Shown here piece by piece: positions 1-58,520 of a stretch of 64,000 nt of DNA. The DNA comes from Amoebophrya sp. A120. Its lineage: Eukaryota > Protista > Dinoflagellata. Numbering within the stretch: the stretch's first letter is position 1; every line of letters starts with the position of its first letter. The notes below the pieces were generated by a model, which ran no database searches, was not told the origin of the DNA, and worked only from the letters and a program-made list of their open reading frames with translations. Position numbers and translations under genes: made by a program. The stretch covers positions 1,731,772-1,795,771 of the forward strand of contig CAJINV010000005.1 of assembly GCA_905178155.1 (NCBI GenBank), in the 5' to 3' direction.

Positions 1-3000
1 ACGGCGTACTCGGACTGCAGCGTGTGCATGCGCAGCCCGAGCGTGGCGGATTTGAATATGGAGGAGTCTCAAACGCTTTTATATTTTCAACTGCCAGTAC
101 ATGAATTTGTATGTAGAAATGCAAGAACAGCAACAGTGAAGGGGCGACCTTCTACTTGTTCAATAATGTTGCTTGCAAGAACTCTTGCACCACCAATTTG
201 GCACAACGACAGATGCTGTTCTTTAATAGCCCTTTGAGCATTTGTCATGCAATTTAGCTTGATCGTCTGGTAGCTTAGGCTTACGGAATAAATTTTGCAT
301 GACAAATATTAATATTTCGTGTAACAGTTGAGAATCGTATAAAAACTGATTTGAGAACGCCATATGGAAATCCGCGCACGACTTCCGCTATGAACTGCAA
401 AAGTATCGTACTAGTAGTAATTGCAATACAAATTAGCTCAGCATTACAAATGGAATTTGTCATGCTGTTTCGCCTTGGGGTGAAGATTTGTAATGCACGA
501 CTGCGATTGCTACGAGTACGATACTTTTGCACAGGATATCCGCATCTCCGACATGAGCACCACCGCGTGGTGGTTGTTCAGCCACGCGTAGACGAGGAGG
601 AAGGAGACCTATGAATGTGCACAACTCCCCGTCCCCCTCATTTGTATAGCATGAACGGCAATACAAGCATCAGCAAGAATGCCGGTTTTGCATGACAAAT
701 TTGCCAACGAGTGTAGTGCTATTTGGGCTAGTACCAGAACTTGTCATGCAAACAGTGCCACGAGGCAGATGGTGGATCGAAATCGATATGGATTGGGCAT
801 TTTGCATGACAAATGATGGGGAGGGGGAGTTGTGCGGTGTCATAAGACCAGCGCGTAGACGAACAGCCCGATGAGGGAGTTGAAGTAGAGTGCGAACCCC
901 GGGCCCGCGATGTTCTCCGAGTGGATCCGGGTCTTGAAAAAGCTGTAGTACGTGTTCGGGTTCTCCACCGGGCGCGGGATCAGCCGCCCGCGGTGCTGCA
1001 GCCCGGCGGCCTTGTGGTACTCGTAGTTCTCGTCCCCGGGCACCTTGCAGCAGCCGTAGAAGAGCAGTCCCACGAGGAAACAGAGGAGGATCATCACGAA
1101 GCTAATGACGACGCCGCTCGCATACGCATTGTACATGCAGTAGTTCAGGCCCGCGAGCAGCGTGTAGCCCTCCTGGCACTGCAGGCACGTCCGGGGGGCG
1201 ACCAGCAACTCTTCCCACGTCGTCGTGGTCCCGTCGTTGGTGTCGTCGGTCCGCCCCAGGTTGGAAATCGCCTCCGAAATCACGTTCTCGGTGAAAAAGG
1301 CGCCCAGAATTTTGCCGCTCGTCGTGTGCTGCATGCTGATGTGCCCGGCCGTGGCGTCGGTCGGGGTCCCGGCGGTGATGTTGCCCGCATACTTTTCGAT
1401 CAGGGCCATGTCCATCGGACACTCCAGGCACCCCCGGTCCTGGGGACAGGCCTCGCACTGCATCGTGATGTTGTTCCCGTACACCCGGGTCGGATTCCGG
1501 GCGCCCACGTGGCCCTGGTTGGTGCCGAAGGAGACCACCCCGCACTCCTCCTTGGCGACGCAGGAGAGCAGGCAGGAGAAGTAGTGGTCGATCTGCACGA
1601 AGGGGCACTCGGGGGGGCAGAACCCGGCCGCCGAGGCGCGGTTGATGGGGCTGGCGGCGTCGCAGTCCACCTGAAACAGCGTGCGGCAGGGCACGGGGTT
1701 CTTCCCCGAAACGTACCGCCCATCTACCACCTGGACGTACACGCTCTGCCCCAGGGCCTGCTTGTCGCGCCAGTCCTCGGGCTTCAGTTGTGGATCCCCA
1801 AACACCATGAAGTCCGTGGGCAGCCACCGCCGCCGGCTGCGGCCTTCTTCCTCAGCATCCGCGAAACTGTTGTAGTAGTGTCCTTGTCCCATGTGGTAGC
1901 GGTGGGCGAGCACGCCTTGCTCCGCGGCCTCGACGTCGGGAGAAGACGAGGAGGACCGACTACTTCCGGGGGCTCCAGAAAATTCAGCGGAACTCTGCAG
2001 AAGCTGCGGCATCTTGTTCATCTCTCTTGCTTTCAGTCGCTCTAGTGATAAACCTTGTTCACGACCGTCTGTAGTTTCATTGTTTGGAATTTTCTTATTT
2101 CCCAGTAGAGTTTCACCAGCTTTGTTCCCGTACGGTACTGCGAATGGCACCGTCACGTTGGTCGCTCCTTCGCCGGCCGGAATAATCTCGGATATTTCTA
2201 CCGATTGACTGCTGTGCATGTAGTCCAACAACGACCCGTCCTCCGCGTAGTCGTACTGCGCTTGGGAGTTCATCTCCGTCGCTATCAAAGGGAAAAATCC
2301 CCCCTCCCCATATCGAAACGAAGTTTCTGACGCTGGATCTGCGTACACAAATCAGGTCTGTCTTGCTGGAGAGGACTGCAGGCATATGCCAAGCCTGGGT
2401 CGCGAGGTTTTGACGTAGGGGACTAGCATGACAGATATCGGCTCTGTAAGCCCAACAGCATCACAAACCGCCGGCATAATGCGGCGGACTCTCGGGCTTT
2501 GCCTTCCCGCAAGACAGACAGGATTTGTGACCTCAAATCTGCATCACAAATTTTCAGACGAGTGCGTTTTTAATATGGGGAGGGGGGATTTTTCCTCTTA
2601 ATAATCGCCCGTGCCCGGTCCTTTTCCTGCAGGTCTTCCAGGGTCTTGGGGGGATTCTTGTCCACTGCGGTGGTCTCTATTACAGGGAAAAGTGCCCCCC
2701 ACCCCTAAATTGCAAAAATTTGTGATGCGAAGTTTCCAAATGAAAACTTTTTGTCATGCATGAAAGGAGTATGAATCTTTCTGATGCAGAAAGTAGGCGT
2801 GTATCACATCGCTTGCATGACAAGTGCCGCTCTTGCTGGGGTCTTTTGCAATGCAAATTTTTGCTATTCACGATTGAAAACCTGTGATGCAGATAGATGC
2901 AAGAGGGCGAATGTTTCATTTGGAAAGGTTTGCAATACAAATGCTCCCAAGTTCGGGGGTGGGGGCATTTTTCATTGTAATAGTCTCCGACACGTGCACT

Positions 3001-6000
3001 AACACCGACGGCGCGTTCGGAATCACTTCTGCCAGGGACTAGAGCTTTAACACCCGTTAGCATGAGAAGTGGTGAATTTGTAGTGAATTTTGCATGCCAA
3101 ATTGCAGTTGAGCCCGCCGGGACATTGTCCCTCTTGGCCCTGTTCTGGGAAGTAGAAGGCCCTGCACCGCGCAGCAGCCGCGGGCATTTGTGCAGTGGGC
3201 AGCCAGAGGACATGGCCCGGGCGCCGTTCTTTGGGCAGGTTTTTGCGCCTCCGGGTTCTCGCAGAAGAGCACTGCAGCAGCCGCGGCAAAGACGCCAGAA
3301 ATAAAGGCTGCGAAGCGCATACAACTAAGCAAGAAGGCAGGCAAGGACGAAAGGACCCGGCCGAGAGCTTTGACGCATTTTCCCGGCAGGCGCGTGAAAT
3401 CTTGCGGCATTTTCAGCAGAATACAGGCGGGCTTAGGGCAGCAGAGGACTACGCTTTTTCCCCCTTTGCGTTCCTTCTCATGGCCTATCTGTGCACTTTT
3501 TTGAGCACTTTTCTGCGCTAAAGTTTGCTTATCACGGTCGAAAATGGGCGCCCGGTGAATTTTGGGGTGAATTTTGAAAAGGGCGCCGGTGAATTTTGGC
3601 CTCCGGCTCCTTTTCAAAATTCGCTAGCGCGTGAGAAACTCCGGGTTTGGGGGCTTCAAAAAAGTGTCGCAAAAACAAAAAGCCTCAAAATTCACCAAGA
3701 GAATTCTTGACCTGAGAGCCACCTCGAAAAAGACTTGCTCCGGGGGCAAAAACACGCCTGGGGAGTTGTAAGCCGAGCACACCAGGCCAAGCAAGCTAGT
3801 GCCCGTAGCCGAGTCGTGCCTTCCTTTCCACCCGAGGCTACTCCCAGATATCCAATTCCAAGCCACAACCACAACTCGTGAGAGCGCACGTGTTGAACTA
3901 GTGCCCCTGTGTTCAGGCGTCGCCCTCCCTCCCGACCATTCCGGAGAGGAACTTCTGAGGCAGACGCGCAGATGAACAAGAGCCCCACGACCCACACTCT
4001 TTGGTTACATATGCACTACACAGTCCGGCGGGCCCCAGCAAGACCTACCACTACTTCTTTCGGTGCTGCAAGTGCCACCTGGCACCGAGCAGCCCTTCAC
4101 GCTGCGTGAGCTGCTTGGGCTCGTGCCCAGCCCTTTACGCAGCGCACTTCTCTTTTGAAGTGAATGCAAGTCATGCAATACAAATTCACTGCAAATTCAC
4201 CCTTCTGTATGCTAACGACCGTCCAAGGCATAAGCCACTAACACCGACGGCGCGTTCGGATTCACCGAGGCTCCTGCCTGTTGCTGTTGTAGTGTAGACA
4301 ACTGGCTGTCTGTTCCGATCAGATGAGCCCTGGAGCTGAAAATCAGCTGCGTAGAGTTTCTTGCTTCGCTAGAAGTTGTACTCTGTTCGGGGCCACTAAG
4401 CTCGCCATACTCACCTGGCGGCGCGGGCGGAACAAGTCCTCGCGCATCATAGGCCGCGCCACCCCGACCTGCTCGTCCTGTGGTTTCTTTTTTTCCAGAA
4501 GTAGAGGAGACAGAATTTGAAGATGTCCACGACCTTTCTTGCCAGTTCAATCTTCGCTTGTCCGCCTCTTCCATCAGTAGCGCGAAGTCGTGCAGAAAAA
4601 CAGTGGAATTCACTGGCTTCACTCTCATCAAATTCAATATTTGGCTGCTCTTACTGTTCTTGCTAGAAGCACCAGACAAAAAGGATGACACTTGGTCGAC
4701 GAAACCATCCCTGCTGGAATAAGGTATCGTTCCCGCGGACGGAAATGGTTGGTCCGTCCGCCCTGAGCGCTGGTCGTGCAGCCCCAACTGCAAAAAAGCC
4801 TCCTGCCTGTGGTCTGCACCATCGGCAGCTGCACCACCGCCAGGGGGAGTCGCAGAAGCATCTGCCGGAGGAATTTTTCTGGTCGTTGTAGTATCAACTT
4901 CAGTATCTTCACCACCTCCTCCGACCACCGGAGCCGAATTTAGCACCCCGGATTCCTCCTCGGCAGTTTTCCTCAATAGGGCTAGTGTGTTGAACGACTG
5001 CGGTTGTTTGTTCCCGGAACTTGCGGAGTCTGGGCTCCCGCTCGGTTTGGCGGAGCCATTTGATGCGTCCACTTCTGCGAGACCACCTGGCGCGAGTCGT
5101 TCATCTCCTTCGCCAGCTGTGCTCCGCGTCTCCTCGCTCACTCCAGAATTATGCAGTTGTCGTTCGAGCGGGGCCGGTTGTAGACCTCGAGGTGGCTCGA
5201 GATGTTGTGGACGTTGTCCCGGCGCGATCGCGAGCGTCTGTGGCCGAAGATCAGGAAGAGCAACATCATCCTCGTCTTCCACCCTCCAGCGCGGGGCTTG
5301 ATTATAATCCTCATGAGTAAAAATATCAACGTCCCCCACAGTCATGGGAGCCGACGAGGCACCGCCGCCTTCTTGTTGTTCTTCTGATGTGGACAGGGTA
5401 ATCGTGCCCATACCTAAGCCGTTGTTCAATACCAGCGTCTGGATTCTCGCTGCCAGCTCTTCGTCCGATAAAGAGTTCAACGACGTTGTTCCTCCAACAC
5501 CTGGCGCTTGTTGCTCTACCCCTGCTTGGTTCGCCTGGTCTAGCGTCACAGCCCCCCCGGCCACCAGCAAACTATCGTCGTGAGATGTGAGCAAGCCATT
5601 TCTACTAGTACCCAGAACACCAACTGAGGTTGCGGAAGATGATGTTGATGTTCCTCCGTCGGGGTGCACCAGGGCCCCGTTGTGCTTACCGCCGCGGAAT
5701 TCGTGGCTACTGAAATTCACAGCCGCTGTGCGTTCCGGCTGGCGGAGCCAAACCAACTTGTCGACCGCGGCGCTACGCACCTCGAACCGCCCGGGTTTGC
5801 TGTAGATCGGCGCGACCACGTGGCACTCCCGCGCCTCCTTGGTCACCTCGAGACCTCCGTGCAGCATTTCTTCGCCCTGGTTCCGTTGGAAATCTCTCAT
5901 TGCGAGACCATCACTCGTCCCATCCGTGTTTGTCGACGCGGCACCACTGGTGCTCTCCTTTTGTTCAACATCCTCACCGCCTCCACAACAGGCACTGCTC

Positions 6001-6701: not shown

Positions 6702-7449
6702 TTTCGTGACGAGAGAAGCTGAATAATACTTTAGACAGCCTAATTACCGTGGTTGGGAAATACAAAATTCAAAATCGGGTACGGGTAAGGGATGTTTTAA
6801 GCAAAACGGTAAAACTGTGAGCAGGATTTTCGCGTATCGCAACAGCTGTGTCTTTCACAAACCAAAACTTCCTTCAAATTAATCACACGAAAAACAACAA
6901 ATCCTCGTCCTGAATATGCACTGGACACATAGACTCATCAGACCTGCGTTGTTTGGTTGTAAAAGTCACTGGAATCTTAGGAAGGCGCTGATAAAGCAAT
7001 ACGTAATACCTACAAGGAGTTCATCATCTGGACGAGGACGACATCCAAACGAATGCAGATCCAGAAAAAACGTAAGCACGATGTGAATCAGGACGACGAT
7101 GACGAGCGAACGAGCAAAAACTTTTTTTCTGACCTTCAGACCACGATGCGGGTGAGATATTGGAGAACGATGACAAGGAAACTGAACCGCGACAAGGCTT
7201 ACCAATACCATGCACGTGAGGCACCACGATGTAATTAAAACAAAACATCATCAACAAAAAAAAACTATAGATTTAGATACATCAATAATTTGATTTGCAC
7301 GGCAAGGACGACAACTCTGCTCGGAGTTGTGTGGCAGCAGGCACAGATATCTTCCAGTGGAGTACTCACTCTATCACTCTAGTTGTTGCACAAAGAGCAA
7401 ATCAGCCGACATTTGAGAAACGAGAAACAGGTTTGGACATTTCACATGT

Positions 7450-8005: not shown

Positions 8006-8139
8006 GGATTGGGGTTGCAGGCGTCAAGCCTCGCGGCTTCTTTCGGGCTCCAAAGATTTCACACCTCGGCACCGCGAGCCTACCCTCAAACCAACCGCCG
8101 GGCGAAGCGGATTGGCTGTGGGCCTCCCAAACCGCCGCG

Positions 8140-10676: not shown

Positions 10677-12691
10677 CTACCTCGGTGGCCTGACGGCCCC
10701 AGTTCGAATAGTGACAGGTTGCCCCACCTGGTCCAAATCTTCCGTTGCCAGCTGGTTAATCTTCGACGCGGCCTGCGCAATCTTTTCCTTCAGCCCGGCT
10801 GTGGTCACGCTGTCCCTACTGTTCATGATCCTATTTGCAGCAGCAGCTCCACTTGTTCCACCTCCGATGGATGATGATGTTCTACTCCGGCTATGATCTA
10901 GAGTGGACGAAATGTCGGCGCACACCTTCTGAATCTCGGCGTCAATCGCAGACTCCTCTTGCTGCAGACGGTGCGCGTCTTGCTGGTTGGAGGTGCCGTT
11001 TGTCTGCGAAGCTGTCAAGGGTGTACTTGATCCTGCAGATGTCAGCACTCCCGCATGCTGTTGTTCCCGGTGCTGCTTCTGCTGTACTTGCAAATACCAG
11101 TCAACCAAGACGCCAGCAGACACTGCGCCAGCTGTTGAGGAAGCAGAATTAGTAGATGCAGTAGATGTACTAGCTCCACCAACTACCGGACCACTATTAT
11201 TTGATGTGATTCCTGTCGTCATCATCTCCTGCTGCACCTTCGCACCCACTGCCCCGATGATCTTTTGTTCGAACCGGTGAATCAAATCCGACAAAAACGC
11301 CGCCTGCTGTTCGTCCCCGTGGACGGGGGGGATCCCCAGAAGCTTCGCGTTGGTTAGGCTCTCTTGTAGACTCTCGGTGGACATTAGTTTGATTTTATTT
11401 TTGAACAGATCGCCGTTGTTCATATCAAATGCAAAAATGTCTGGGTCTGGAAGATTCCGGGATTTGGGATGCATATTTTGTATGATCCATGATGCATCTA
11501 ATGCATGATCTAGCATCACAGATTTTTAGAGGTCTTTCTGATGCCCATTCTGCATGAGAAATGCCCTCTCCGCGTAACACAAACTGGACTCCTGTTGCTG
11601 GTCACGCAATACAGATTTTTTTGGAATCCAAAGACAGCATGACAAGTTGCAATCTTCCCGACCCAGACATTTTTACATTTCATAGTTCAGATAACTCTGC
11701 ATTTCGCTGATCTTCGCTTGGTGCTGCTCTTGCATTTTTTGCTGCTGCTGCTGCTTGGTGGACGATGTTGATGTTGAACTATGGTCGTGCACCAGCTGCT
11801 GCGCGCTTGAGGAGGTCCTCGCGTGAAGATGTTGTGCGCTTCTGCCGCGGGTTATGGTTATAGTGCCGGTGGGGTTACGACCATTAGTACCCGTATAATC
11901 ATATGGAGTTGTATCACCCCCGGCCGCGAAGGGATTGCTCCTCGAGTTGTAGGGAAACGAACTAGAGCTCGCCGATGCGGTTGGCGTGTGGTCCATCACC
12001 ATCGGCTGATGCGCGCCTTGTGGAACGAAGCCCGTTGGACCAGCCGTTGCTGAAGAGGAACCACTAGAACTATTTCCGCTCCGAACAAGTCCCTTGTTGC
12101 CACTGCTCGCAAGCGTCTCCACTCCGAACTGGGGTATTATGTCCGAAAACAGCCCCCGCGCTGCCGAGGTAGGAGGTTGGTGTGCACCGGCTAGTTCCCC
12201 CGGCTGGTGCTGGGACGACGACGACGATGCCCCGCTGGCAGTCATGAAGACGTTGGTGCGATCTGCTGGCTCGATAATGGAAGATGCCGCCCCGAAACTG
12301 AACTGCGGGCGCGAAGATGAAGGAGCTGCGGATTGATAGGTAGTTTTGAGTGGAACAAAATGTTGCAATTTTAATGCTTGCGATATGAAATCATTCATCC
12401 TCCCCTAGTAGCAAGAGAAAAATTGATGCCATGCCCAGGCATGGAAAGAAAGAAAGAAGGAAAGAAAGTAGCAAGAGAATGAAAAAGAGGCGCGACCATG
12501 ATGTGAAGTGATGCACTACTATCGCACGCTATTATAGAAGAAGTCACCCTCCTACCTCTCTCAAAGCCACCGCCCCTGCCGCCCGTGATAAGCTCATCTC
12601 GGTCGAATCGTACGCGCAATGGGCTCTTCGGAACGCTCAGATCGGCGGTTGAAGGATACAATGCCTCCGAGGATTCCGCAGGTGCAGGCAT
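10677..12691 (-). CDS. Hypothetical Ser/Gln-rich protein, 3 exons
   Basis: Exon MPAPAES..GRR; canonical GT-AG intron 12405-12547; exon GRMNDF..QSYLN; introner 11423-11684; exon NGDLFKNK..PPR-stop; all in frame. Confidence 0.75.
11423..11684. mobile_element. Introner, TATCAAATGCAAAAATGTCTGGGTC family (gamma)
   Basis: TIR with gacccagacatttttacatttcata; TSD GTTCA; frame restored. Confidence 0.92.
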
Positions 12692-18245: not shown

Positions 18246-19102
18246 TCAGCACGGGATAATCTGGTAGCTCATGGCCTTCATTTCGTGGTTTTCGCGGCCA
18301 TGGACGAGCTTCTTCTTCACGCAACCCTCCTTACCTGATGAAAAATTTATAAATGATTGATGAACATTTTTTTTTCTAAAGATTTAGATTGTTCTTGTAC
18401 AATCGTCATCATCAGATTGATAGACACAGTTTGACTCGCACCATAATATGATGCCCTCTCATGGAATTCCAAAACACAAGCTAGTCGTAGTCAGTCCCAG
18501 GAGATGATCAAGTTAAAACGTCAAATGTCGAATCATACTGCAGTCGCAGGTTCCGATTTCCTCCGAGTAGGTCGCGTACTCTGAACTATCAAATGCAAAT
18601 ATGTCTGGGTCTGGATGAGTGTGAAGATGCTATTTGTGCATGACGCAGAAGGTCTGGAATGCAAGTCCTAGCAACACAGGTTTTGAGCACGTTAGGCGAT
18701 GCCTACATCTTCCGCATGACAAATTCTCTCTTTGGGTGACAAGAAATGAGCAACTTTTGCGGTCCATGCATGACAGATTTTTTTCTGGTCTCCAATGCGC
18801 ATCAGAAGTTTACATGTTTCCAGACCCAGACATATTTGCAATGCATATGAGCATCGCGTCATCAAGTGCGCGGACACCTTTACCTCGCAACCGCACACTT
18901 CCACCTCCGAGAACTTGGAATCCGTACTGGAAACGCAGGTGTTCACGGCGTTGTTCAGACCGTCGCCCTCGCCCACCACATTGCCGTCCACCGAGACCTT
19001 GGTGGTGACACTGTACTTCCGCTTGTTGTTCTTGAAGGTGCTCTTTTTCAAAAACGCTGACGCAAGCACGGGCAGAGCAAAAAGCTGCAAAAAACGACGC
19101 AT
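18246..19102 (-). CDS. Small secreted cysteine-rich protein (about 130 aa), 3 exons
   Basis: Signal peptide MRRFLQLFALPVLASA; introner 18587-18847 and GT-AG intron 18335-18538 give ...LMTRCS-EYATYSEEIGTCDC-SKEGCVKKKLVHGRENHEMKAMSYQIIPC-stop. Confidence 0.85.
18587..18847. mobile_element. Introner gamma
   Basis: TIR tatcaaatgcaaatatgtctgggtctgga / tccagacccagacatatttgcaatgcata; flanks TGAAC/TGAGC. Confidence 0.9.
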
Positions 19103-46786: not shown

Positions 46787-49635
46787 AATGAAGGCGAGTT
46801 CGGATTCGATTCTATATTTGTGCCCGACCAGTTCGCATGATCACTGCTTCGCGATGCAAGAGATCTTCTGCTTCGAAGTAGTTCCCCGGAACTGATCCTG
46901 GACGGGTCCTCTGAGTCGGCGTCGGGCGAATGCGGACCTCCGAGTCAACTACACGAACGTTATGTTTTTCTGATCCATTGGACCGAGAAAGGACTCGCAA
47001 CTACAGGACGGTGAAAACAAGATACTAGAGTGCCTGTTGTGTTCTTTGTGTCTCACTCAATACGCAGCTGCGCGTCAAGAAACCTACTACTTCTCGATCA
47101 TACTACATGGCAACCAGGACAGGCAACCTGCTCTCGCTGGAGACTCACACAACAAGTCAGAATCTCACTGAAGATGTAGATGTCATACTCAATCCGTTGA
47201 GAGACCTTTCTCGAGAAGCTATTTTTACGTGGAGGTGGACACAATAGACACTCCGCTATTTTTCGGGGCGAGAAACGATACTCCAGTAGCGAGTGCAAGC
47301 CGCAGCACCGAGGTAATTTCATACTTCGGCTCGTAGCAGAAGTAGACTTTTTTCTTCCGATATCCTTGTTTCCAAAAAGATGTACAGGCTCGTTGTTATT
47401 CTTGGATTCAATTTCATCATTTCTTTTCATCTTCATCACTTCGACGCTCTTTATTTTCATAGTTTTGTACAGTGTCATTGAAGATTTATTTCAACGTCGT
47501 CAGTTGTCAGTCTCTATATGTACAAGGCGTTCTTTGGAATGAACTTCTTTTAATTTTAGTACAGCGACCCGGCCGCCGCAGTCCCTACCGTCATCGCAAC
47601 ATCTTCTTCTCCTTTGTATACACATTATGATGCGCGATGAGGATGAGCACGACCCCTGTATTAAGCAATTGAAAAATTGACATTTTGCTAGCAAGAAGTT
47701 TTACGAATAAATATTTTGATTTTTTATCGGACTTGGCCCTGGCCCTCCACCACGGCGCAGAAGCCAGCTTTCGTGATTATATGGTACATTTCCAAACGGT
47801 AGCTCTCAGATTCTCGGCGGCGATTTATTCGTAGGGTACTTATACTCGACGTCCTGTTGGAAAGTAGGTATCTACAGAAGGCAAGTTTTAATTTTGGTTG
47901 ATGTCATGCTCATCAACATTATGTGCCACATCGCGTAAAAGATACAGTCAGAGAAAAGCGATTGTAGGAAGTAGTTCTTGGGAAAACCAAACTAGAGCGA
48001 AAAAAGCGACAGCATTTGTAGTACCCGGCGGTCTCACCGGTTCTCTTCTTTCGACGTTCTTTTGTTCTCATTGCTGTTCTTCTCTCTTGCTTTCTTCGAA
48101 ATAGGCAGTTTTCGAAAATGAAAATTTCGTCCTAGAAAAAGCACACGAGGAGGAGCACCCCGGGCACTTATATATCCTAGTCTTCATCGTCTATCGTCTT
48201 TAGATTTTCGTCAAATGTTTGTCAACCACAGGAGCACAGAAATGATTATATTTAATTTTTTTTGAAACTACACGTGCAATTTATACAAGGTAAAAGATCT
48301 ACTCAGTGCCTTACTTAGTGACCGTAGTGGAGCACGAATGCTAAAGCTGTTCCTGTTTGTTACATCATGCGCGATCATTTTGGTTTGCAAAGTAAAAGGT
48401 CAAGAAGATTGTGCGCCTCCAGCTGTAGGCAGTAATTCATTTTTCTTTATTATCGTCGAATACAAAATTTCAAAAGCTTGGAAAAATGCGGAAGACGTTC
48501 TCCTCTGTGTCCTGCTACGCTTTCGTAATCCTGCTGAGCAGAGCAGGTTCTCCTTTAGTTGCGTTTAGGACCAGCAGCAAAGCAACGCCAACGTCTCGAG
48601 CCATTCTTGTGAGAATTCAAAAATTTGTGAAAGTGCGAAGATTACATTACGTTGTCCGTGCGGTGGACACCATAAATACATCATAACGCAGCTATATGAA
48701 CGTGCTCTGCAGCACGATCAAGAATGGGGGTTCTTGGTTAGCCTTAGCGACACACAAAGCAAGCTCTTTCGGATGCAAACATTCATGAACCACACTGCGG
48801 GAGCGGGCTCTGCTTCCGTTTCTACAAATTTACGAAAATAGTTTCTGTTAATCTTGATCTGAGGGTAAATTTTTCAGTATGTTTTTTCAGGATACTTGGT
48901 ACAAGTAGTTCGGAGGAGGTGCGTCATAATTTACGTTCGTCAACTCGAAATCGAATACAAAAGGAAAGATCTCAGGCATAAGTGTTTAAAATAATCTCGT
49001 GGTTCGTACAAGGAAAAGCTGTTCTGATGCCATCAGATATGGCGTTGATAAAGCGAGAAATGGCACTGCTATTCATCTGTAGAAATCAGTGAAACAAACT
49101 CAGACTGTAATATTTTGAAGATAAAGATAAAGTTAAAGTTGTCAACAGAAAAAGATAATAAATTGAAATTAGAAGTGGATAGGTCGTAATTTAATTATTA
49201 TAAGTTTGTAGACCAAGATATGAAATCCGTTAGGATCATAAGGCAAAACACTCCACCGACCTAAATCGAGTGCTCATTCATGCAAATCACGATGTAAATT
49301 CTGGAATCACGATGAAGATCAAGACGTACGAATTTGAATCACGATGGTAGTCAAAAATTTGTGATGATCGAGACCACAAAATCTCGATCTGATATAGAGC
49401 CTGTTTTAGACCGTGAGACATGAAAACTTGTGTGTGTTTGTGAACCCCTAAATTTTCCCTACAGGCTTTGACGCTAGTACAAATTGACTATTGATTGCGA
49501 CTAAGAAACCTCGAATCTCACCTAGATTCTACTTGACATCCAAGATGGCCAGTGTTCACACCGCCCGCGTTTCTTCGTCGTTGATTGTAGTAACCGCCTA
49601 GGTTCTAACAAAGTTCAAATTGTAAAAGTTAGTTG

Positions 49636-52600
49636 TCATCTAAGATGGATCCGCGATGCACTGCACGACTTCACTCGCATTCGGGTTCTGGTTGCGGTTC
49701 GCCAAGATATAGACAGCAAATAATATTTTGTCTGAGAACTTAATGCAGCACGTGCAAAAAAGGTATTTCTGTATTTTGCAGAGTCGTCACAGAATCCGCA
49801 TGATATTCTTTGTTCGCAGCCGCCGCTGACGAGTCGGCAGCTGCAACGATAAAACCATATTTCAATTTCTCTCTTGATGCACAAAACTTGATGCAACATT
49901 GATAAACCCAGACATAATATATTTGCAATCGATACATCCGCCCGCGCGACTGGCTGTTGCCCCACCACGGGAGCCGGATTTTGGTGCTGCGGGTTCCCGT
50001 AGGCTGCGTGCGTGTGCATCGGAGCTGCAGAAGCAGCAGCTCCACCACCACCGATGGCTCCTGCTGCCAGTTATGCATATGCAAAACAAGTACTTAATAT
50101 CGCCAAAGAACTAGTGTAGGAAAAATTATCGGATGACAAATTTATCTCAGAGGAAAAATTCAATTCCCTTTGTTATGCAGATCCAGGTTGATAAACAAGC
50201 AGATCTACCAGATTTTGATTGATTAATGTAGCTACGCCCCCTGACGTACCTCGGTAGCCGATCGCTCTACCAGCCGGAGGTGCTAATCCAGCTCACATTT
50301 GATGACAATACTATGGTGCATAATCCAGATCACATTCACAAAAAATTGCAGTTTTGCACAAACCATGTTTGTTTGTAAGACTGCAATTTTTAAACAAGTA
50401 CGAGTGCGATAGTACTTTTGCATTGCATACCGCTGCACCTGGAGCAATCCCTCCAGCCGTTGACGGATGCAAAGGGGGCGGCGCAGTTTCAGATACTATG
50501 AGAGTGCACAAGAACTCCTCCTCCTCGCCCTCGTTTGTCATGCAATACCACATCAACAACTCTACGACAGGCCCCTTTTGGTTTTGAGTACTCCGCTGCA
50601 TGACAAGTTGCAGATGCAGCGACCCAAGCTGCACTACAGTCCCCACATGAAATAATTGTAACGCTACGCCTTTGCTGTTTTCCGTGATCATGCTGCTCAT
50701 GCCCTTCAAACTATGAGGCGGGGAGCTCGGAGCTATGCATTCTCGTATCAGGTGTAGTGGTCACCGAAGCAGTGCTAGTGATAGAGCCGGAACTTTGACT
50801 AGACAAGGGACAAGCGGCTCTACTAGTACTTGCTGTACTAGGACAACTCGTCCTGCTAGAAGACCCTGCGCCACCGGTTCTTGTTGCAGAGCTAGTGTGT
50901 GTTTGTGTGTTTGCAGCATCACAGACGCCGTTGATCGTCGCACCTGCCGAGGAAGAACTTGTACTACCAGAAGGAGTGACACCAGCAGGAGGACCCCGAC
51001 CCCGAGTAGTTCCTCCCGCCATGATGCAGTTGGAATTACTGCGAACAAGTGCTTCATCCTGGACCTCCGATGAGGTAGACTGATCTCCTGTTCTTCCCGG
51101 CTGGCCCGCGATCGCAGCTGTAGGAACCTCGCCCGAGTTGAAGATGGCTGTTGCATCAGGACTAGCAACTCGTCTTCTAGGAGATGGGCCAGGTGATGAT
51201 GAGATCCTCCTTGTCCTCCTCGTCCCCGTTGTGGGCGTGCCTTCTTGATGCACCGTTGTTCCACCCACGGCGGCCCTTCCCGCGGGGGCGCACGTGGTCG
51301 CGCCGTCGCAAATTGCCACAGAAGGCGAGGAAGGCCTCCTGCGCGCCCTCGTCCTCCCGCCACTGCTTCTATTCGCGTTGGCTCCTTCTACACGACGAGA
51401 CGACGCCGCAGGTCGTGCGTCGCGGGGATAAGGACAACTTCCAGGTCGTGGAGCTCCTGCCGCTGCAGCGGGCGCTATGCTGTTGCTAGTACCGCCTGGC
51501 AGTGTAGTTGCAGACGAAGTTGAAGAACCGCTCCCCAACATCGATCCCCGCAGCGGCTGCGCAAGAAGAGCCGCGTAGTCGTGGTGGTGGTGGTCCTCGT
51601 CATCGTATAAAAATTCCGCCTCGGAGGGGTAAGAGTCTGGAGTCCTGGCGCTACTTTCTGCTTCTCCGCCCGTGCTTGTAGAAGACGAGGATGCTGAGGA
51701 GGTGGAGGAGAAGAAAGTAGTACTCGGAGCAGAAGATAGTGACGACCATGGGGTCGTGGACCAAGAAGATCTACTTCTGCTATTTGAGTTGTAATTTGCT
51801 ATCCAGCGGCTCCAGAAGTAGTCGTGTTTTATCTCGTCTTGTTCAGCAGCAGCAGCGTCGTGGCCCCTAGCACTGGAACTGTCTGCGCGGCCCGTTTGAT
51901 CTACTGCGTGCAGCAGACCACCATGCGCATGCGGGTCGTCCGCGACGAAAGAGACAGCAGCTGCAGGAGGAGGGCGGTCGTCCTGCAGTTGGCCGGCGCT
52001 TCTTTGATGTTGCCCCTGCTGCTCTCCGGCACAAGAACCAGCTTCCCGGTCGTCGTTCGCGGTATTTACCAGGAGGGGGTTTTCGGCCGCATCTTGTCCT
52101 ACTTCTTGCTGCTGCGCTGTGCTCCAGTTCCGGTCGAAGTTATCAGCCTCTGCCTCTGAAGATGTTGAGGACGAAAATAGTAACCCAGAAAATACCGAAG
52201 TAGATGAACCTGCAAGATGAAACCTCCCGCCTTCATCGTCGGTGTGGTGGGTGGAGGATCGGCCGCGGGGGCACCACGACATCCAGGGGTGTTGTCGGTA
52301 AAAGAACATCACGTAGACAAGCACGAAGACTAGCACTAGCGCAGTGAGAGGAATGAAAATCAAGCCCAGCGGTTGTAGTCGGGGCAGGTGCAAGAGGGGA
52401 GGTTCTTGGTGATCATGTTGTGCTGCATTGGTGGTGCTGGATGCAGCAGCTCCTGTAGCTGAAGAGAAAGCTGAAGCAGCTGGAACAACAACCACCTTAG
52501 CAATCTCTCTTCCCATCCTCGTCGCTGCCGCCAAGATGACGTCCAGGTGGAGGGAATCCAATCTCATCGCCGCGAAGCAGTCCCGCACTGCTGCGACAAA

Positions 52601-53959
52601 TCTAGAGAAGAGGCTTGGATTTTTACTCTCGCTCGATGTAGCAGACCACTTGTCGTGCCTGCTGCTGATGCTGTTCTTCTTTTGGCTGACGACCTTTTCG
52701 TACATGCGCATGTACTCCTGCGCCTCATCGCTGAGGTGGTCTCCAGGTGGGCCAAAACCTCTGTAGAAGTTCTGCCCCGCGGCGACGTCTCCAGGCTGCA
52801 AGCCTTTCCAGTAGGCCGCTATCAGGTCCGCGTCGGCAACATTTTTGCCGCCACCAGCCGCCGTGTCTTGCTTGACGAGAATACGGGCAGCGTCCAACCT
52901 TGCTTGCCTCACAGCGACTTCCTGCCGCAGGAGCTGGATGTACTCCAATTTGAGCGCCCGCAGCTTGGCCTCGTCTTGTTCGGTCCATACTCGTCCTGAC
53001 GACCCAGCAGCCGCTTCTTGTTGCCCGGCTTCTTTTACTTCTTCTTTATTTAGGTTGGTGGAGGGCGACGGCCTGCTCTCGCCGGAGTGGTCGTCGTCCG
53101 CGACGTGAACTGCACTCGCATAGAGATCGGTAGTGGTGGTACTACTTGAAGACAAAGATGTCGCCAGCTGTGTTTCATCTCCACTAAGATGCTGCTGACG
53201 AGGTAGATCTACACCTCCGGCTGGGGGCGCGCCTCCAAGAACATCACCTGTTCCTTCGTCATCAGCGGTTGACGCCGTCCTGCGCAACTCCTGCGTGCGC
53301 AGCTCCTGCGCAGCTTGCAAGGCCTTTTTGGTGCCGCGGAGGGAGAACCTCTTCTCGCTTGGCGCAGGTCGTGCACCGCCGCCTTCCGCACTTTCCACTG
53401 TTGGCGGTCGCGGCGCCGCAGGAATAACAGCCGGGCCGTCTCGTGGTTCAGCAGTCGGCGCTGAGAAGTCAACAACACTTGGCCGCGTACTGGCGGTGGT
53501 GGTCATGATCGCACTTGTTGCGCTTGGTGGCGAAGTAGGAGAGGACGCCAGCTTCGCGGCGAACTTTTTGCTCCCACGCAAACTGTACTTTTTCTGTCGT
53601 GTGGTCGTCCTCACGTCGCTTGCAGCTGGTTGCTTGTCTATGTCTGCTGCTCCTTCTTGTTCCTCCTGGACATTTGTAAGTCGTCCTCCTGCAGGTTGTG
53701 TTTCTTGTTTCGCTTGGTCGTGTTCTTCCACCTCCGGTGGTGGAGATGTCGACACCGAAGCTCCACTTGCTGGTGGCTTTGGTACTGCTACTCGTGGTCC
53801 CTGGTGAACAAGTTCACTTTCATCTACTTGCTCATATGCATTGTAAAAGTAATATCGCACCAGCAGTGGAAATAGTATCAATTCCCAAAGCAAAAGCTGC
53901 AAATGGAAATGGTGGTGGAAAACGAAAAATAAAAATTGTAAAAAAACTACATGCTGCAT
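49636..53959 (-). CDS. Hypothetical Ser/Thr/Ala-rich single-pass membrane protein; extra 3' exons likely
   Basis: 1082-aa ORF with TM LGLIFIPLTALVLVFVLVYVMFFY; the ORF end reads into a degenerate introner and GC-rich exon-like blocks follow at 50430-50495 and 49935-50070; both ends uncertain. Confidence 0.65.
50072..50429. mobile_element. Degenerate alpha-like introner
   Basis: tatgcatatgcaaaacaagtac / gtacttttgcattgcata; TSD eroded. Confidence 0.6.
50497..50747. mobile_element. Degenerate epsilon-like introner
   Basis: tatgagagtgcac..ctcc..tttgtcatgc resembles 610-844; right end atgcattctcgta. Confidence 0.55.
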
Positions 53960-54029
53960 TTTTAATAGCTACAAAACCGGATTTCATTCTCATGCCGTGC
54001 AGCTGCAGTTGGTGCGAGTACGGTACTTT

Positions 54030-57000
54030 TCAAGTGGATATCTCGCCGACCATGGCAAAAAAAGATGAACGCATTGGAGATGAAGAAGCATCCTGCTCCT
54101 CATGAGCGGCGTCGTGGGCCCACAGCGCCGCGCCACCTTTCTTCGACCCCGAAGACCCACGACCTCGCTTGGTGCGTGCCCGGGCACCGGCATATCCTGA
54201 GTAAAAACGTACCCACACCAGAGTCAGGATGGGGATTTTGCAACACAAACCTAGGAGTTTTGTGAGTCACGCATGACAAGTCGCACTCTGCAGTGTAGTG
54301 CAGATTAGCAAGTGCAGCCGCATCACAGATTCATCTGCTGATCCTGTTCACAGCATCACAAATTCCAAAACACGACTGAAAATGGCTCTCATGCGGATGC
54401 GCATTACAAGTCTTCCTGTCTTTGCAAATCTGCATTACAACTCTGGTGTGGGTACGTTTTTACTCAGGATACGGCATTTTTCGCGGCCAGCTCGCCCAGG
54501 TCACCGTCGCCAAGTTGCGTCACTCGTTTGTGATCCCTGCCATCCTATCAAATGCAAAAGTGTCTGGGTCTGGAAGGATCACAGAAAAATCTCTCACGCA
54601 TAGGTAGGAAAAGCTGCCCACTTTCTGTCACCAAAATGGGGGATTTCTCATGCGGGTTCGGCATTGCGGAAGCTTCTCGAAACCTGTGATGCTAGAGTTT
54701 CCATGCCAGACCTTCTGTGTCATGCAAAAACAGCATGAATCTTCCGGACCCAGACATTTTTACATTTGATACATCCTGTTTGTGTGCCTCGAGTCGGGCG
54801 ATCGCATTTTCGACCTCGAGGATTTTCTTGCCCACCGGGGTCTTGGCCTCCAGTGCCTGCCGCCGCTGGTCGGACTCACTCTCGGCCGTCAGTCGGGCAC
54901 GCCGCCGGGTAGTCGCGACAGCGGTCAGACCAACAGCAGCCGCATATGAACTGCAACAGTCTCGCACTCGTAGCAATTGCAATCATGCATTATAGTTTTT
55001 TTCTCAAGGTAAATCCACATTAAAAATTTTATTTCTCACGAAAAGGAAATTTGATGTAAGTAAAAATGCAATTTATACGTAGTACGATGCTTTTGCATTG
55101 CATACTGCAGAGCCAACAGCGACCACTCCCGGGTTTCCCTTTATAGTGTCCGCGACTGTCTTCCCCATTTCGGTCATTTGGTCCGTTTGCTTGTTGACGA
55201 CGTTTTCTAAAGCCCCAAAGCTTGACAAGTCCAGGTTGTGGCCATCATGGCCGTCTTCTTCTTCGAAATAATGGGCCAGTTGTTCAGGAGTGTCGAGGGG
55301 ACGAGGTAATGCGTGGCCTGGATTTTCCGGGTCTTCTAAGCTTATATGCGTGTGCAGCAGGTCGGAGGGAGAATTATCGTCGCCAACTCCGAAGTGCAGT
55401 GTATTCAGGAAGGACAGCTTGAGTGCTTGTTCACCGTCCGCCGCGCTTGAGGCATCCGGGTCCTGCTTTTCCATTAACTCATCAAACAGCTTGCCGGCCA
55501 GCGTCTCCGCGTCGTCCGTCTGCTTCAACATCGGTTCGCCGCCAAGGAGGGTTATGGCGTTCTCAAGCGTTACACCCTCAACTGTTACAACGCGATTAGT
55601 CATGCAGGATGACAATGAGCCGCCAGACGATCAAGCTGCTTCGCATGACAAATTCTTGAAGGGCTAAACAGCATGTAAATCTGTGCCAAAGAAATCTGTC
55701 ATGCAAGACGCGCAAGGTCCCCCCTTGCACTTTTGCGAATCTTGCGTCACAAATTCTTTCGTGTAACAGTTGAGAATGTAACATTTGAGCACAATTCCAT
55801 AAGGGTGTACAAACCTTTGTGATCGCTGACAAACCCGTCCAGGGAGCCGGAGTCCGTGAAAAACGCTTTGAAATCCTCTTTACTCATCACTTGGTTCCTA
55901 TCGCAAGAAAAAACTGTTTCACTGTGAACTTGTGATGCAGAAAATGTATCTGAGAAGTGTTTGTCTTACTACACATGCAAGACAATGGATTTTTAGCTGT
56001 GTTTTCCCTTTGGGAATCTCGCATGGCAAATTTTCTCTGTGATGTAGAATAAACTTGTGATGCAAAACTTGCAGCACCCTTACAGTGAAACACTTTTTTC
56101 GTACGATAGTTCCCGTTCCCGGCGCTGCTCGTCATGGCGCTCTGGAACTCCGTCATTGTGTGTTCCAGCGCCGCCGAGTCGAACAGCTCATTCTGCTTCA
56201 GGAAGCTCTCGGCAATTTCGCTGGTGTGCCCCTCCTTACCTTCTGTGTTCGTTGCAACGGCTTGCAGGAATGTGTCCTCCGTGTCGTATGTTACGTCAAT
56301 CTCGTCGTCTGTGATGCCGAATTTTGTTTTGACCGCCTCCCAGGCCGTGTCCGCATCGACGTCCAGCCCTGCCTTGCCATGCTGGCCCGGCACGTCGACG
56401 TCCTGCAGCAGGGTCTCGCGAAACTGATTGGTGGTCGAGGATCTTTCGCCGTCATTCTCCCACAATCTCTCGAAATTGGCCTTGCTAATCTTTTATCCAA
56501 TGCAAATAAGAGAGAGAGAGAGAGAACTGACATAATAAATTAGGCCAGACAATATACGACGAACATCACACAGAAGAACGCTGGCCTTGCTCCCGTCCAA
56601 CTGCTAGCGTGATGCCTCTCCGCCCACCTTATCAAATGCAAATAAGTATGTTTGGGTCTGGAAGATTAGTCACGCTGCTTTTGCATCACACAGGAGGTCT
56701 ACTACTTAGCATGGAAGCTCTAGCATCGCAGGTTCTACTTTCGGGAAGCTTCGGCTTCCGCAATGCCGAATCCGCATGACAAATGCCACCCAATTTTGGT
56801 GACAGAAAGTGCTGGGCAGCTTTATTTGCTGCCTATGCTGCATAGAGAGATTTGCATGTGTTGTGAAGTGCGAATCACCAGTTTGATGCATTCTCTCAGA
56901 CATCCAGGGATGAGTATTTGCAAGGCATATCTTTCCCCCTGCGTGGTCGTTGCCATGATTTTCATGTGCTTCCGCAACCACGGCTTTCAGCCAGTTCGTC

Positions 57001-58520
57001 TGATCGACGTCATTTTCGCCGCCCATGGCGTCCTTCCATTTCGGCACGTCCACGTGGTCCGCTCCGCTGTCTGGAATCCCGTGAAGGTCCGCAAACACGT
57101 CCGTCACCGGAACCTTCCCCGCACCAGGAACTGTGGGATCGCCCGGAATCTTCTCCGTGTCGCCAAACGCCTCTTTGAGATCAGCCATTTCCACGGTCTG
57201 GGCGGGAGAATCTGGTCCGTCGGGGTACTCGAACTCCTGAAACAAGGCGTCGACCGCCTGCTTCTTGGCAGGCTCTTTTCCCCCGAGCATGTAGAAGAGG
57301 CCTTTGTATTTGGTATCGACTTTGCCGTCGGGGTCGTTTTCGTCCACCAAAAAAAACTTCTCAAACTCCTGCTTGGTGATTTCGTCTGCGTGCTCCCCAA
57401 ACGTCTCCAGTGCAAATATGTTGTCTGGGTCTGGCGGAAAGAATGGGATTTAGATTTACCATGCTACTGACTTTCAATAATGCAACAAAATCAAAAACCT
57501 GTATCGCATGACCAACGGAACGCGCTCCGGTTTTTGCCTCGCGGAGGAGGCATTTCTGATGCAGGATAAGCATGATGAGCAACCTTTCGCGAAAGCTGTG
57601 TTGCTCTTGCTAGAGCGTGCTCGTGCATTAGCATTACCGGCAACATAATTATAGTTATACATCATTTGTTTTTGAAGGACATCATGACCCACCGGCATCG
57701 CGGTGGATCATGCGTATGCGTATCTACATCCTGCATGGGAAACTATATCCTGTATGCGTATGCGTCTGCATCTATCTGCATGGGAAACTCCTCCAATCTT
57801 CGTTGGTCCAGACGACACGGACATATTTGCAATGGATACGCTGCGTCGTCTTGCAAAATCGCCTTCTCGTTCAGGTCGCGGATCTGGTCCTCGATGTCCG
57901 GCTTATAGTCGGAGTGTCCCAGCTTGCCCTCGGTCTCGTCGGGAAAGAGCGCCGCTTCACGGAGTATCTCTTTCGCTGCAAATACTCCTCCGTGATGGTC
58001 GGACACAGCTTCCTTATTAGGAGTTGAAAGGAAGTTTGAGTTTATGGATATGTGTGAGTTTGTGTCCCAGGATTCCCGATGGAGGAGTTTGTAAACGAAA
58101 TCGCCCGGGTTGTTCCACCACTTCTTTATCGTCGCATCCCAGGCGTTTCCGCCGCCGTCGTCCCATTCGTGCATGGGGTTCTCAGTCTTTACATTGATCG
58201 CTGTATACATGATTTTCTCGTGATTTGCCATGCAAGAGTCGCAAAAGCAAAACAAGCCGGGACCTCTGTCGCGCGTCGCGGGGCTGCAAATGCAATATGA
58301 GTCGGCTTGAAGATCATGCCGATTTGCATCCCATTTTTTTTTTTTTGATTGAGGTTCTGCATGACAAATCAAGGAAAAAATCCTCTTACAGCGAGCAATG
58401 ACACTACGTTTGAGAGCGCCATACCCTGTACCATCTTGCCCCAAGCGTCAGAAGCATCTTCGTCGCTGGGGAGGGGGCCGAGCGTTTCTTTGAAGGAGTC
58501 CTGGAAATCATCCAACATGA
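54030..58520 (-). CDS. Hypothetical acidic multi-exon protein with a C-terminal hydrophobic anchor-like segment; 5' part cut by the element at 58533
   Basis: Asp/Glu-rich exons in ORFs 57743..58444, 56706..57350, 55887..56465, 55073..55615, 54692..54982 and 54030..54248, separated by introners; GNPGVVAVGSA-AAVGLTAVATTRRR. Confidence 0.7.
54193..54471. mobile_element. Introner with a perfect 32-bp TIR
   Basis: tatcctgagtaaaaacgtacccacaccagagt and its exact reverse complement; TSD CGGCA. Confidence 0.95.
54546..54771. mobile_element. Introner gamma
   Basis: Gamma TIR; TSD CATCC. Confidence 0.92.
54945..55104. mobile_element. Introner alpha
   Basis: tatgaactgcaa / ttttgcattgcata; flanks CCGCA/CTGCA. 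Confidence 0.85.
55553..55801. mobile_element. Introner beta
   Basis: Beta TIR; TSD AGGGT. Confidence 0.9.
55899..56108. mobile_element. Introner, singleton TIR type
   Basis: tatcgcaagaaaaaactgtttcactgt / acagtgaaacacttttttcgtacgata; TSD GTTCC. Confidence 0.9.
56630..56929. mobile_element. Degenerate gamma introner
   Basis: tatcaaatgcaaata..tttgggtctgga / tatttgcaaggcata; TSD not conserved. Confidence 0.65.
58204..58423. mobile_element. Degenerate beta introner
   Basis: Right end tttgagagcgccata; flanks CGCTG/CCCTG. Confidence 0.7.

What the first reader, a model, noticed from the sequence alone, without database searches (positions are those of the whole stretch)
57..58423. One end-grammar for many unrelated introner families: NNNNN-TAT...ATA-NNNNN, with no fixed splice dinucleotide
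Seen: about 30 intragenic elements of 120-330 bp in at least 8 TIR types. Nearly all start TAT and end ATA (exceptions CAT, TGT, ACA) and have a 5-bp TSD. Every junction I translated is in frame once the element plus one TSD copy is removed. Sense-strand TSDs include GAGAC, CATCA, CACCC, CCACT, ACCCT and TGCAC, and several allow no GT/GC..AG reading in any register. Known: introners with inverted and direct repeats and non-canonical boundaries are described in Amoebophrya, but to my knowledge their excision mechanism and mobilising enzyme are unresolved. Inference: one transposase class created all families, and removal is positioned by the TIR stem closed by UAU/AUA rather than by U1/U2AF signals.
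Basis: partly seen in the sequence, partly recalled or inferred. Interest (0 to 1): 0.9.

Follow-up and report, generated by a model that had tools for sequence, protein, structure and literature searches.

The report
Transposon introns cut at fixed register
Small transposons with TAT…ATA ends sit by the dozen inside this parasite's genes and are removed from its transcripts without GT-AG signals, and the junctions that can be read all fit one cut (one base before TAT, four after ATA), which likely reflects a relaxed spliceosome and pins a boundary that the original description left unknown.

Summary
The window has 41 TIR elements (33 exactly TAT…ATA, 23 with a perfect 5-bp TSD). A second assembly shows the same grammar (222 of 248). 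Most of this is in print for Amoebophrya A120 (Farhat 2021: TAT motif, 3-5 nt repeats, non-canonical sites; Gozashti 2025: one family with 5-bp TSD and TA/TA ends).

What is new is the register. RNA-run contigs lack the elements, and element + 5 nt is removed at 13 of 13 exactly read junctions. The 8 of these with diverged TSD copies share one register: intron = N-TAT…ATA-NNNN (chance about 0.001). Farhat's figure calls this border unknown. So 'no fixed dinucleotide' is half right: +2 U is fixed (40/40; 179/179), while +1 and the 3′ end are free. N|UAU resembles the host's G|UA introns.

A relaxed U2 spliceosome is the likeliest excision route (0.6). A structure-guided nuclease plus ligase is the main rival (0.25). 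A stem-only ruler is doubtful, since 7 of 13 spliced elements have no predicted terminal pair. No transposase was found, so 'one transposase class' stays an inference. The RNA evidence is one sample, contigs only.

The parts
57..364 (-). TAT..ATA element, TSD 1 mismatch (sense position 4)
   Evidence: frame; homologue alignment; no RNA laid
389..538 (-). element, perfect TSD
610..844 (-). element, perfect TSD
2283..2603 (-). element, TSD mismatch at sense position 5
   Evidence: no RNA laid
2678..2982 (-). element, perfect TSD
3028..4232 (-). 1205-bp degenerate element with a 34-bp direct repeat (29/34); removing element+34 (or +1, +4, +7...) restores a 1386-codon ORF, element+5 does not
   Evidence: no RNA laid; no Pfam hit above cut-off
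11423..11684 (-). element, perfect TSD
18587..18847 (-). element, TSD mismatch at position 2
   Evidence: strand from frame only
21274..21520 (-). canonical GT-AG intron reading inside an AGGTA repeat; absent from RNA contig
21980..22178 (-). degenerate element; RNA removes 204 nt = element+5; register m=2-5, no canonical reading
23208..23534 (-). element, perfect TSD
   Evidence: contig length consistent
23598..23747 (-). element, perfect TSD
   Evidence: contig length consistent
24189..24408 (-). element, perfect TSD
   Evidence: contig length consistent
25061..25211 (-). element, perfect TSD
25427..25668 (-). degenerate element, TSD mismatches at positions 2 and 5
25726..25949 (-). element, TSD mismatch at position 4
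25999..26935 (-). 937-bp element (CAT..ATA on +), no transposase-like ORF
27440..27677 (-). element (TGT..ATA on +)
   Evidence: with 27738 the contig keeps exactly 55 nt = both elements+5 removed
27738..27887 (-). element (TAT..ACA on +); piece end implies m>=2
29236..29541 (-). element, perfect TSD
29588..29727 (-). element, perfect TSD
30087..30355 (-). element, perfect TSD
30403..30654 (-). element, perfect TSD
34022..34141 (-). element; piece end implies m>=2
34881..35103 (-). element, mismatch at position 2; spanned by a genomic-run contig
35177..35323 (-). element, perfect TSD
35370..35549 (-). element (CAT..ATA on +), mismatch at position 3
35862..36000 (-). element, perfect TSD
36386..36557 (-). 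degenerate element, mismatch at position 4
37204..37411 (-). element, perfect TSD
49708..49934 (-). degenerate element; RNA joint 49702>49935; m=3-5
50072..50429 (-). degenerate element; joint 50066>50430; m=3-5
50497..50747 (-). degenerate element, no direct repeat left; joint 50492>50749; m=4 only (AT..AT)
53835..54040 (-). element; joint 53830>54042; m=1-4
54193..54471 (-). young element (TIR 20/20); spliced, register ambiguous
54546..54771 (-). element; spliced, register ambiguous
54945..55104 (-). element; joint 54939>55105; m=4-5
55553..55801 (-). element with small insertion in one TIR; spliced, register ambiguous
55899..56108 (-). element; spliced, register ambiguous
56494..56929 (-). 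element holding a second left end at 56630; removed as one 441-nt intron
57404..57838 (-). degenerate element (TCT..ATA on +); joint 57399>57840; m=4 only (GT..TT)
58172..58423 (-). degenerate element (CAT..ATA on +); joint 58167>58425; m=3-4
58509..62588 (-). 4080-bp element, perfect TSD, internal palindrome at about 60170-60730; skipped by the same transcript; no coding domain
   Evidence: loose end one search placed at 62594
62618..64000 (-). left end of a further TAT element after a 25-nt exon; loose-end letters imply m=4 or 5; far end outside the window
49575..58508 (-). host gene segment: 13 exon pieces, 5585 nt, 1828-codon ORF, no Pfam hit in its largest exon
19475..32851 (-). host gene with URGCP/RHD3-like GTPase exon; mixes canonical introns and introners

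Best explanation
These are short repeated elements with inverted ends and a 5-bp target duplication, likely non-autonomous DNA transposons, that are removed from transcripts at one register, one base before TAT and four bases after ATA, likely by the host's U2-type spliceosome with relaxed site recognition. Step 1 (inferred): an integrase-like DDE transposase inserts them in either orientation at any 5-bp target. Step 2 (shown on contigs): the intron is N-TAT…ATA-NNNN, so one TSD's worth of bases goes with the element and the reading frame is restored exactly. Step 3 (inferred): N|UAU is read as the host's G|UA 5′ site with +1 relaxed, U+2 and A+3 kept, and U+4 available to the U6 ACAGA box. 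Step 4 (inferred, weakest): the 3′ site needs no AG and is measured four bases from AUA, either from a branch A in AUA or from the hairpin base. Because the ends are palindromic, both orientations supply both signals.
For: Three RNA-type runs give one 5.5-kb contig each that skips 12 elements, always element+5; a 13th junction is. The allowed registers intersect in m=4 only: upper bound from 4 junctions, lower bound from 3; chance of any common register 0.0013. +2 U is 40/40 in the window and 179/179 in a second assembly, where its pairing partner -5 A is 174/179. +1 is free (A57 G53 C38 T31) and the 3′ dinucleotide is free (AG 15/179). TSD composition is unbiased over 303 perfect TSDs. Close family pairs lie in the same orientation relative to the gene 134 times and opposite 108 times. 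Five canonical introns placed by RNA contig length plus frame start GTA; three more read from sequence alone do too. All 18 predominant non-canonical classes in Farhat's Table S4 have T at +2. A120 keeps U1 proteins, SF1, U2AF and Prp8 but lacks snRNP27, whose loss goes with +4 U preference in yeasts (PMC10581693 abstract). Old elements without a predicted terminal pair are still removed as element+5, and those that can be read fit m=4.
Against: No lariat, branch point or snRNA contact was observed. In young elements +2..+6 are predicted fully paired (54193, 55899: probability about 1), which would hide them from U1/U6. U1 snRNA was not detected in A120. The invariance of TAT/ATA is partly built into my detection. 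G at -5 keeps a wobble pair, so pairing alone could explain much of the +2/-5 asymmetry. The -7 A branch idea looked good in 179 elements (1 variant vs 4 at its partner) but faded in 303 (4 vs 7). Deposited A120 annotations end in AG/AC in about 46% of large-family copies, above the 16% this register predicts; I read this as boundary choice inside ambiguous repeats but did not test it. TSD mismatches are synonymous in 30 of 59 cases, a little above my rough expectation of 40%, leaving room for minor alternative registers. The 34-bp-repeat element does not fit +5. The RNA is one sample, contigs only, minus-strand genes only. No transposase was found.
Confidence: 0.6

Rival explanations
1. A non-spliceosomal enzyme recognises the TIR hairpin (or the transposon-end sequence), cuts 1 nt before and 4 nt after the stem, and a ligase joins the exons, as proposed for euglenid and diplonemid nonconventional introns. 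This is closest to the first reader's view.
For: No G+1 or AG is needed. Young elements form long stems that bury the 5′ site. The staggered cut resembles a duplex nuclease. U1 snRNA was not detected. RNase III-like and tRNA-splicing-like routes and circular introns are discussed in PMC12621601 (passages). The same register result would hold.
Against: 7 of 13 spliced elements have terminal-pair probability <=0.22, and a 4080-bp element is removed. Pair-breaking changes at -5, -6 and +4 are tolerated while +2 changes were not seen in real elements. The cut falls where a GU(A) intron would start. The spliceosome is nearly complete.
Confidence: 0.25
2. The register is not fixed genome-wide. The 3′ site is chosen by matching the direct repeat, or several registers are used, and m=4 is only the major or local form.
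For: Contigs show only the major form. Mismatches are synonymous in 30/59. The annotation has excess AG/AC. The 34-bp-repeat element needs +34 or +4 removal. Farhat calls sites variable relative to the hairpin.
Against: Two elements with no or one matching repeat base are cut at exactly m=4, so a repeat is not needed. m=0 or 1 is excluded at 7 of 8 informative exact junctions.
Confidence: 0.1
3. The missing segments are reverse-transcriptase template switches across hairpins, or programmed DNA excision.
For: Hairpin plus direct repeat is the classic setting for false introns (own knowledge). The kind of runs X3, X4 and X6 is only guessed as RNA. Only 15 of 1287 joints were shown for the lay that included the genomic run.
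Against: Removal occurs with zero repeat overlap (both=0 at two joints). All 12 elements are missing from one contig and the ORF needs it. The same kind of contig also lacks GT-AG introns, while the genomic run X1 has gap-free contigs across 21980 and 34881.
Confidence: 0.04

Closest known systems
Amoebophrya A120 introner elements (Farhat et al. 2021, PMC7789003; read: passages, sections 10, 11, 16, supplement parts 3-4 and figure legends; figures not visible)
   Same: TAT start, seven loose bases, then an A-run; short direct repeats (5 bp in the Fig. S19 legend); about 240 nt; non-canonical sites; many families; no transposase found in A120. The window is most likely this organism or a very close one (inferred from the motif; not tested by direct match).
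   Different: The paper gives repeats of 3-5 nt, calls splice sites variable and the border unknown, and argues against transposase mobilisation. Here the TSD is strictly 5 bp (303 vs 10 and 2 at 4 and 6 bp) and the register is fixed with U at +2.
A120 family 38 and other A120 TIR introners (Gozashti et al. 2025, PMC12130899; read: passages, about 40 of 58 A120 rows of supplement 8)
   Same: Family 38 is noted as '5-bp TSD, TA/TA termini', with Copia/Gypsy integrase-like homology, labelled Ginger in the table.
   Different: Noted for one 5-copy family only; most others are 'TIR DNA, unknown' with varied automated TSD lengths. No fixed splice register is given in what I read. Family 65 has GG/CC ends and an 8-9 bp TSD.
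IS3EU/GingerRoot, IS481EU, Ginger2 DNA transposons (PMC10045372, passages)
   Same: TA..TA ends (IS3EU/GingerRoot), TNT..AYA ends (IS481EU), 4-5 bp TSD (Ginger2); all use integrase-like DDE enzymes.
   Different: IS3EU has a 6-bp TSD; IS481EU has about 4, 15 or 25 bp and is parabasalid; Ginger2 ends are TGT..ACA (recalled). No enzyme here allows an assignment.
Fritillaria borealis non-canonical introns (PMC11282704 and PMC13326754, passages)
   Same: MITE-derived introns with TIRs and TSDs removed by a U2 spliceosome without GT/AG.
   Different: They have preferred AG-AC/AG-AT ends, an exonic TAC and duplicated U2AF. Here the target is unbiased and U+2 is kept.
Euglenid and diplonemid nonconventional introns (PMC11282704, PMC12621601, passages)
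   Same: A stem joins the ends a few bases inside both cuts; TSD-like repeats lie at the junctions.
   Different: They pair CAG/CTG at +4..6 with -8..-6 and give circular RNA; here +2..4 faces -5..-7 and the product is unknown.

Membership tests
Amoebophrya A120 introner elements | Terminal inverted repeats starting TAT, 7 loose nt, >=3 A | tested here: met
   PWM of 54 ends; definition
Amoebophrya A120 introner elements | 3-5 nt direct repeat at the exon/intron boundary | tested here: met
   5 bp
Amoebophrya A120 introner elements | Repeated in the genome | tested here: met
   summed contig depth 10^3-10^5 on most elements vs about 45 on exons in run X1; families
Amoebophrya A120 introner elements | Removed from transcripts at non-GT-AG sites | tested here: met
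Amoebophrya A120 introner elements | Host is strain A120 | not tested
   no genome held; inferred from the end motif only
MITE / non-autonomous TIR DNA transposon | TIRs, constant TSD, short, non-coding, multi-copy | tested here: met
MITE / non-autonomous TIR DNA transposon | Cognate autonomous element with a transposase | tested here: inconclusive
   none in 64 kb plus 620 kb of loci; whole genome not searchable
IS3EU/GingerRoot | TA..TA termini | tested here: met
IS3EU/GingerRoot | 6-bp TSD | tested here: not met
   303 perfect repeats at 5 bp vs 2 at 6 bp
Ginger2/TDD | 4-5 bp TSD | tested here: met
Ginger2/TDD | TGT..ACA termini (recalled) | tested here: not met
   one TGT and one ACA end among 41 elements
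IS481EU | TNT..AYA termini | tested here: met
IS481EU | Discrete TSD lengths near 4, 15, 25 bp | tested here: not met
   one 34-bp case only; none at 15 or 25
Integrase-like DDE superfamilies (all three above) | Transposase phylogeny | not testable with these tools
   no enzyme recovered
Canonical U2-type intron | GU/GC at 5′ and AG at 3′ | tested here: not met
   0 of 41 GT-AG at m=4; 4 of 41 in any register
Canonical U2-type intron | U+2, A+3 at the 5′ site | tested here: met
   40/40 and 39/40; 179/179 and 178/179
Canonical U2-type intron | Branch-point A and lariat | tested here: inconclusive
   -7 A asymmetry not robust; lariats not observable
Euglenid nonconventional intron | Stem joining both ends | tested here: inconclusive
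   terminal pair predicted in 6 of 13 spliced elements
Euglenid nonconventional intron | CAG/CTG at +4..6 / -8..-6 | tested here: not met
Euglenid nonconventional intron | Circular excision product | not testable with these tools
   needs RNA work

The most novel reading that the evidence does not exclude
This parasite's spliceosome has dropped both G+1 and the 3′ AG. It reads N|UAU at the 5′ site and counts four bases past AUA for the 3′ site, so a palindromic TAT…ATA transposon with a 5-bp TSD becomes a scarless intron at any target, in either orientation and at sizes from 120 bp to 4 kb. The transposon's end and TSD length fit the splicing geometry exactly (1 + 4 = 5), which would explain the genome-wide invasion and define an intron class with no target-sequence requirement.
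Probability: 0.45. Interest if true: 0.8.

Novelty: already known. Interest (0 to 1): 0.55.

Why it matters
The open question in print is how introns with no GT-AG rule are cut, and Farhat 2021 marks the border as unknown. A fixed register turns this into specific tests: mutate U+2, A+3 and U+4, map the branch, look for a diverged U1 that pairs with NUAU, and read the one 34-bp-repeat element. It would also let tens of thousands of A120 intron boundaries be re-annotated by rule, and it explains why insertions show no target or orientation bias. I did not find the register in print (searches; subscription papers such as Roy 2023 and the paper's figures were not visible).

Tried and rejected
No listed holder was on record as RNA.

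A protein search with exon 846-2279 at near length found nothing. At longer length it gave two homologues, which do not cover the 2283 or 3028 junctions and do not decide the register at 57.

Transposase hunt: 29 long ORFs and 82 frames inside the 937-, 1205- and 4080-bp elements and the 62618 tail gave no transposase or integrase family; two E=0.04 hits below cut-off were ignored. Nine long TAT..ATA pairs in the second assembly look like chance joins of neighbouring elements or nested copies, since they hold host-like ORFs or inner elements (their ORFs were not scanned with Pfam).

Branch A at -7: not robust once 303 elements were oriented. A at -7 is present in 7 of 11 candidate canonical introns, in an A-rich context (read by eye); not accepted as evidence. 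Selection for G at +1 or AG at the 3′ end: not seen. IS481EU-like long TSD classes: one case only.

Rows dropped: 145 of 324 loci elements were left unoriented for weak coding score. Two low-complexity hits (L030:3054, which carries the only +2 variant, and L004:8965) were treated as noise. Tandem-repeat regions 7400-8050 and 60000-60800 were excluded. Three of six training ORFs were out of frame and skipped. Earlier scan notes returned nothing. Farhat's Figs 3 and S19-S25 are images; they may show more about the register than their legends.

Full report
Observation. A scan with no assumption about termini (20-bp TIR at least 15 matched, perfect flush 5-bp repeat) found 22 hits, 20 of them TAT..ATA or one base off. 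Shuffles gave none, and no other repeat length gave TAT..ATA. Adding diverged copies and RNA junctions brings the set to 41: 33 exact TAT..ATA, 23 perfect TSDs, 36 of 120-330 bp. TIRs share TAT-N7-AAAA; interiors fall into 5 clusters and 18 singletons. All lie in genes read on the minus strand. Removing element plus one TSD gives ORFs of 564-719 codons across four or five elements each. Only 4 of 41 allow a GT/GC..AG reading in any nearby register.

A second genome. A TIR pattern found 136 stretches (134 loci, 620 kb, partly overlapping) in one other assembly. Of 248 TIR pairs with a flush 5-bp repeat, 222 are TAT..ATA. Among TAT..ATA pairs, 303 have a perfect 5-bp repeat against 10 at 4 bp and 2 at 6 bp (this count includes the window), with no base bias in the target. 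Twelve multi-member families share the grammar, and close pairs lie in both orientations relative to the gene, 134 to 108. The loci were pulled with one family's TIR, so family sizes are biased.

RNA or DNA. Run X1 behaves as genomic DNA: gap-free contigs run through canonical introns and through the elements at 21980 and 34881. Run X3 has a 7745-nt contig that skips both GT-AG introns and elements. Runs X3, X4 and X6 (one sample) each have a contig of about 5.5 kb that skips 12 elements between 49575 and 58508 (the X4 contig is 83 nt shorter at the last joint), giving an 1828-codon minus-strand ORF. A loose end at 58508 maps uniquely to 62594, so a 4080-bp element is skipped too.

The register. 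Let m be the number of bases kept from the upstream TSD copy. At all 13 exactly read junctions the removal is element+5. Five have perfect repeats and say nothing. The other eight allow m = 3-5, 3-5, 4, 1-4, 4-5, 4, 3-4 and 2-5. The intersection is 4, and random registers would share any value with probability 0.0013. Piece ends at 27738 and 34022 (m>=2) and the loose end at 62613 (m = 4 or 5) agree but are less direct. The intron is therefore N-TAT…ATA-NNNN. The two junctions that fix m=4 alone have no or one repeat base left, which rules out template switching there and shows a repeat is not needed. Limits: one sample, major forms only, minus-strand genes only, three genes.

What the register implies. 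Read this way, +2 is U in 40/40 window elements and 179/179 confidently oriented elements of the second assembly; +3 is A in 39/40 and 178/179; +1 and the last two bases are free. The orientation method called 24 of 24 window elements minus (partly trained on the window) and agreed within loci 124 of 127 times. Farhat's Table S4 lists nine predominant classes per strain, all with T at +2; this agrees but may partly reflect aligner choices. A120 keeps U1 proteins, SF1, U2AF and Prp8 and lacks snRNP27, and loss of SNRNP27K goes with +4 U in yeasts (abstract only). Against a pure stem ruler, the terminal pair is predicted (probability above 0.5) in only 6 of 13 spliced elements, and pair-breaking variants occur at -5, -6 and +4. 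Against the spliceosome, young elements bury +2..+6 in a long stem, U1 snRNA was not detected, and my branch-A signal at -7 did not survive a larger sample (4 vs 7 variants). The +2 against -5 contrast (0 vs 6 in the loci after dropping one low-complexity hit; 0 vs 3 in the window) is suggestive only, since half or more are wobble-compatible G. I put the spliceosome at 0.6, a nuclease and ligase at 0.25, and the fixed register itself at about 0.85.

Results that do not fit. Deposited annotations of large A120 families end in AG or AC about 46% of the time against 16% predicted. Synonymous TSD mismatches are 30 of 59. The 1205-bp element at 3028-4232 has a 34-bp repeat, and +5 removal does not restore its 1386-codon frame while +34, +4 or +1 do. 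It is the only such case in the window and loci and no RNA was laid on it.

Mobiliser. No transposase was found in the three long elements or the loci examined, and the genome could not be searched. TA ends with a 5-bp TSD point to the integrase-like DDE group: IS3EU has TA..TA with 6 bp, IS481EU TNT..AYA, Ginger2 4-5 bp, and A120 family 38 is noted with a 5-bp TSD, TA/TA ends and Copia/Gypsy-like homology. No superfamily passes all its tests. A constant TSD and shared end motif make one enzyme class likely for these families (inference, about 0.7), but another A120 family has GG/CC ends and 8-9 bp TSDs.

Prior knowledge and verdict. Farhat 2021 already gives the TAT motif, short repeats, absence of a clear dinucleotide and a hairpin model, and marks the border as unknown. 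The system is thus already known, and the window is most likely from that organism (inferred). The fixed N|TAT…ATA-NNNN| register was not found in five searches; figures and subscription papers were not visible. Interest 0.55: a known system, but a published unknown is now pinned in this sample and directly testable.

Noticed in passing
window 2994-4266: 1205-bp degenerate TAT-type element flanked by a 34-bp direct repeat; a natural test of ruler versus repeat-guided 3′ site choice.
   Followed up: partly
window 58509-62588: 4080-bp intron with a GC-rich non-coding interior and a palindrome of about 560 bp at 60170-60730; likely a small element carrying a nested insertion of unknown type.
   Followed up: partly
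window 62589-62613: 25-nt exon between two large elements.
   Followed up: partly
window 22752-22975: Intron with an AGGTT repeat, a TAT-type 5′ end and no matching 3′ TIR; readable as GT-AG or at m=4, possibly an introner turning canonical.
   Followed up: partly
window 36664-36945: Candidate intron starting GTATAC with a TIR-like end and a canonical CAG; another possible introner-to-canonical case.
   Followed up: no
window 56494-56929: A second element left end at 56630 inside the intron; similar nesting in L038:6001-7031, where the inner element has an 8-bp repeat.
   Followed up: no
window 21274, 23896, 28604, 31847 (3′ ends): These canonical introns have A/C-rich 3′ ends without a pyrimidine tract.
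   Followed up: partly
window 7440-8050: 14-bp tandem repeat array with palindromic units.
   Followed up: no
window 63700-64000 and 37960-38230: Tandem repeats of about 98 bp and about 89 bp.
   Followed up: no
window 27865-28632: Host exon with a URGCP/RHD3-like GTPase domain (Pfam E 1e-27); the other 28 long ORFs scanned had no Pfam hit.
   Followed up: no
many elements, e.g. window 239-307, 687-752: Internal GCATGACAAAT / ATTTGTCATGC motifs recur across families as sub-terminal repeats; possible transposase binding sites.
   Followed up: no
window 49588-49604: RNA loose ends and higher depth at 49300-49620 suggest another transcript or repeat abutting this gene's 3′ end.
   Followed up: no
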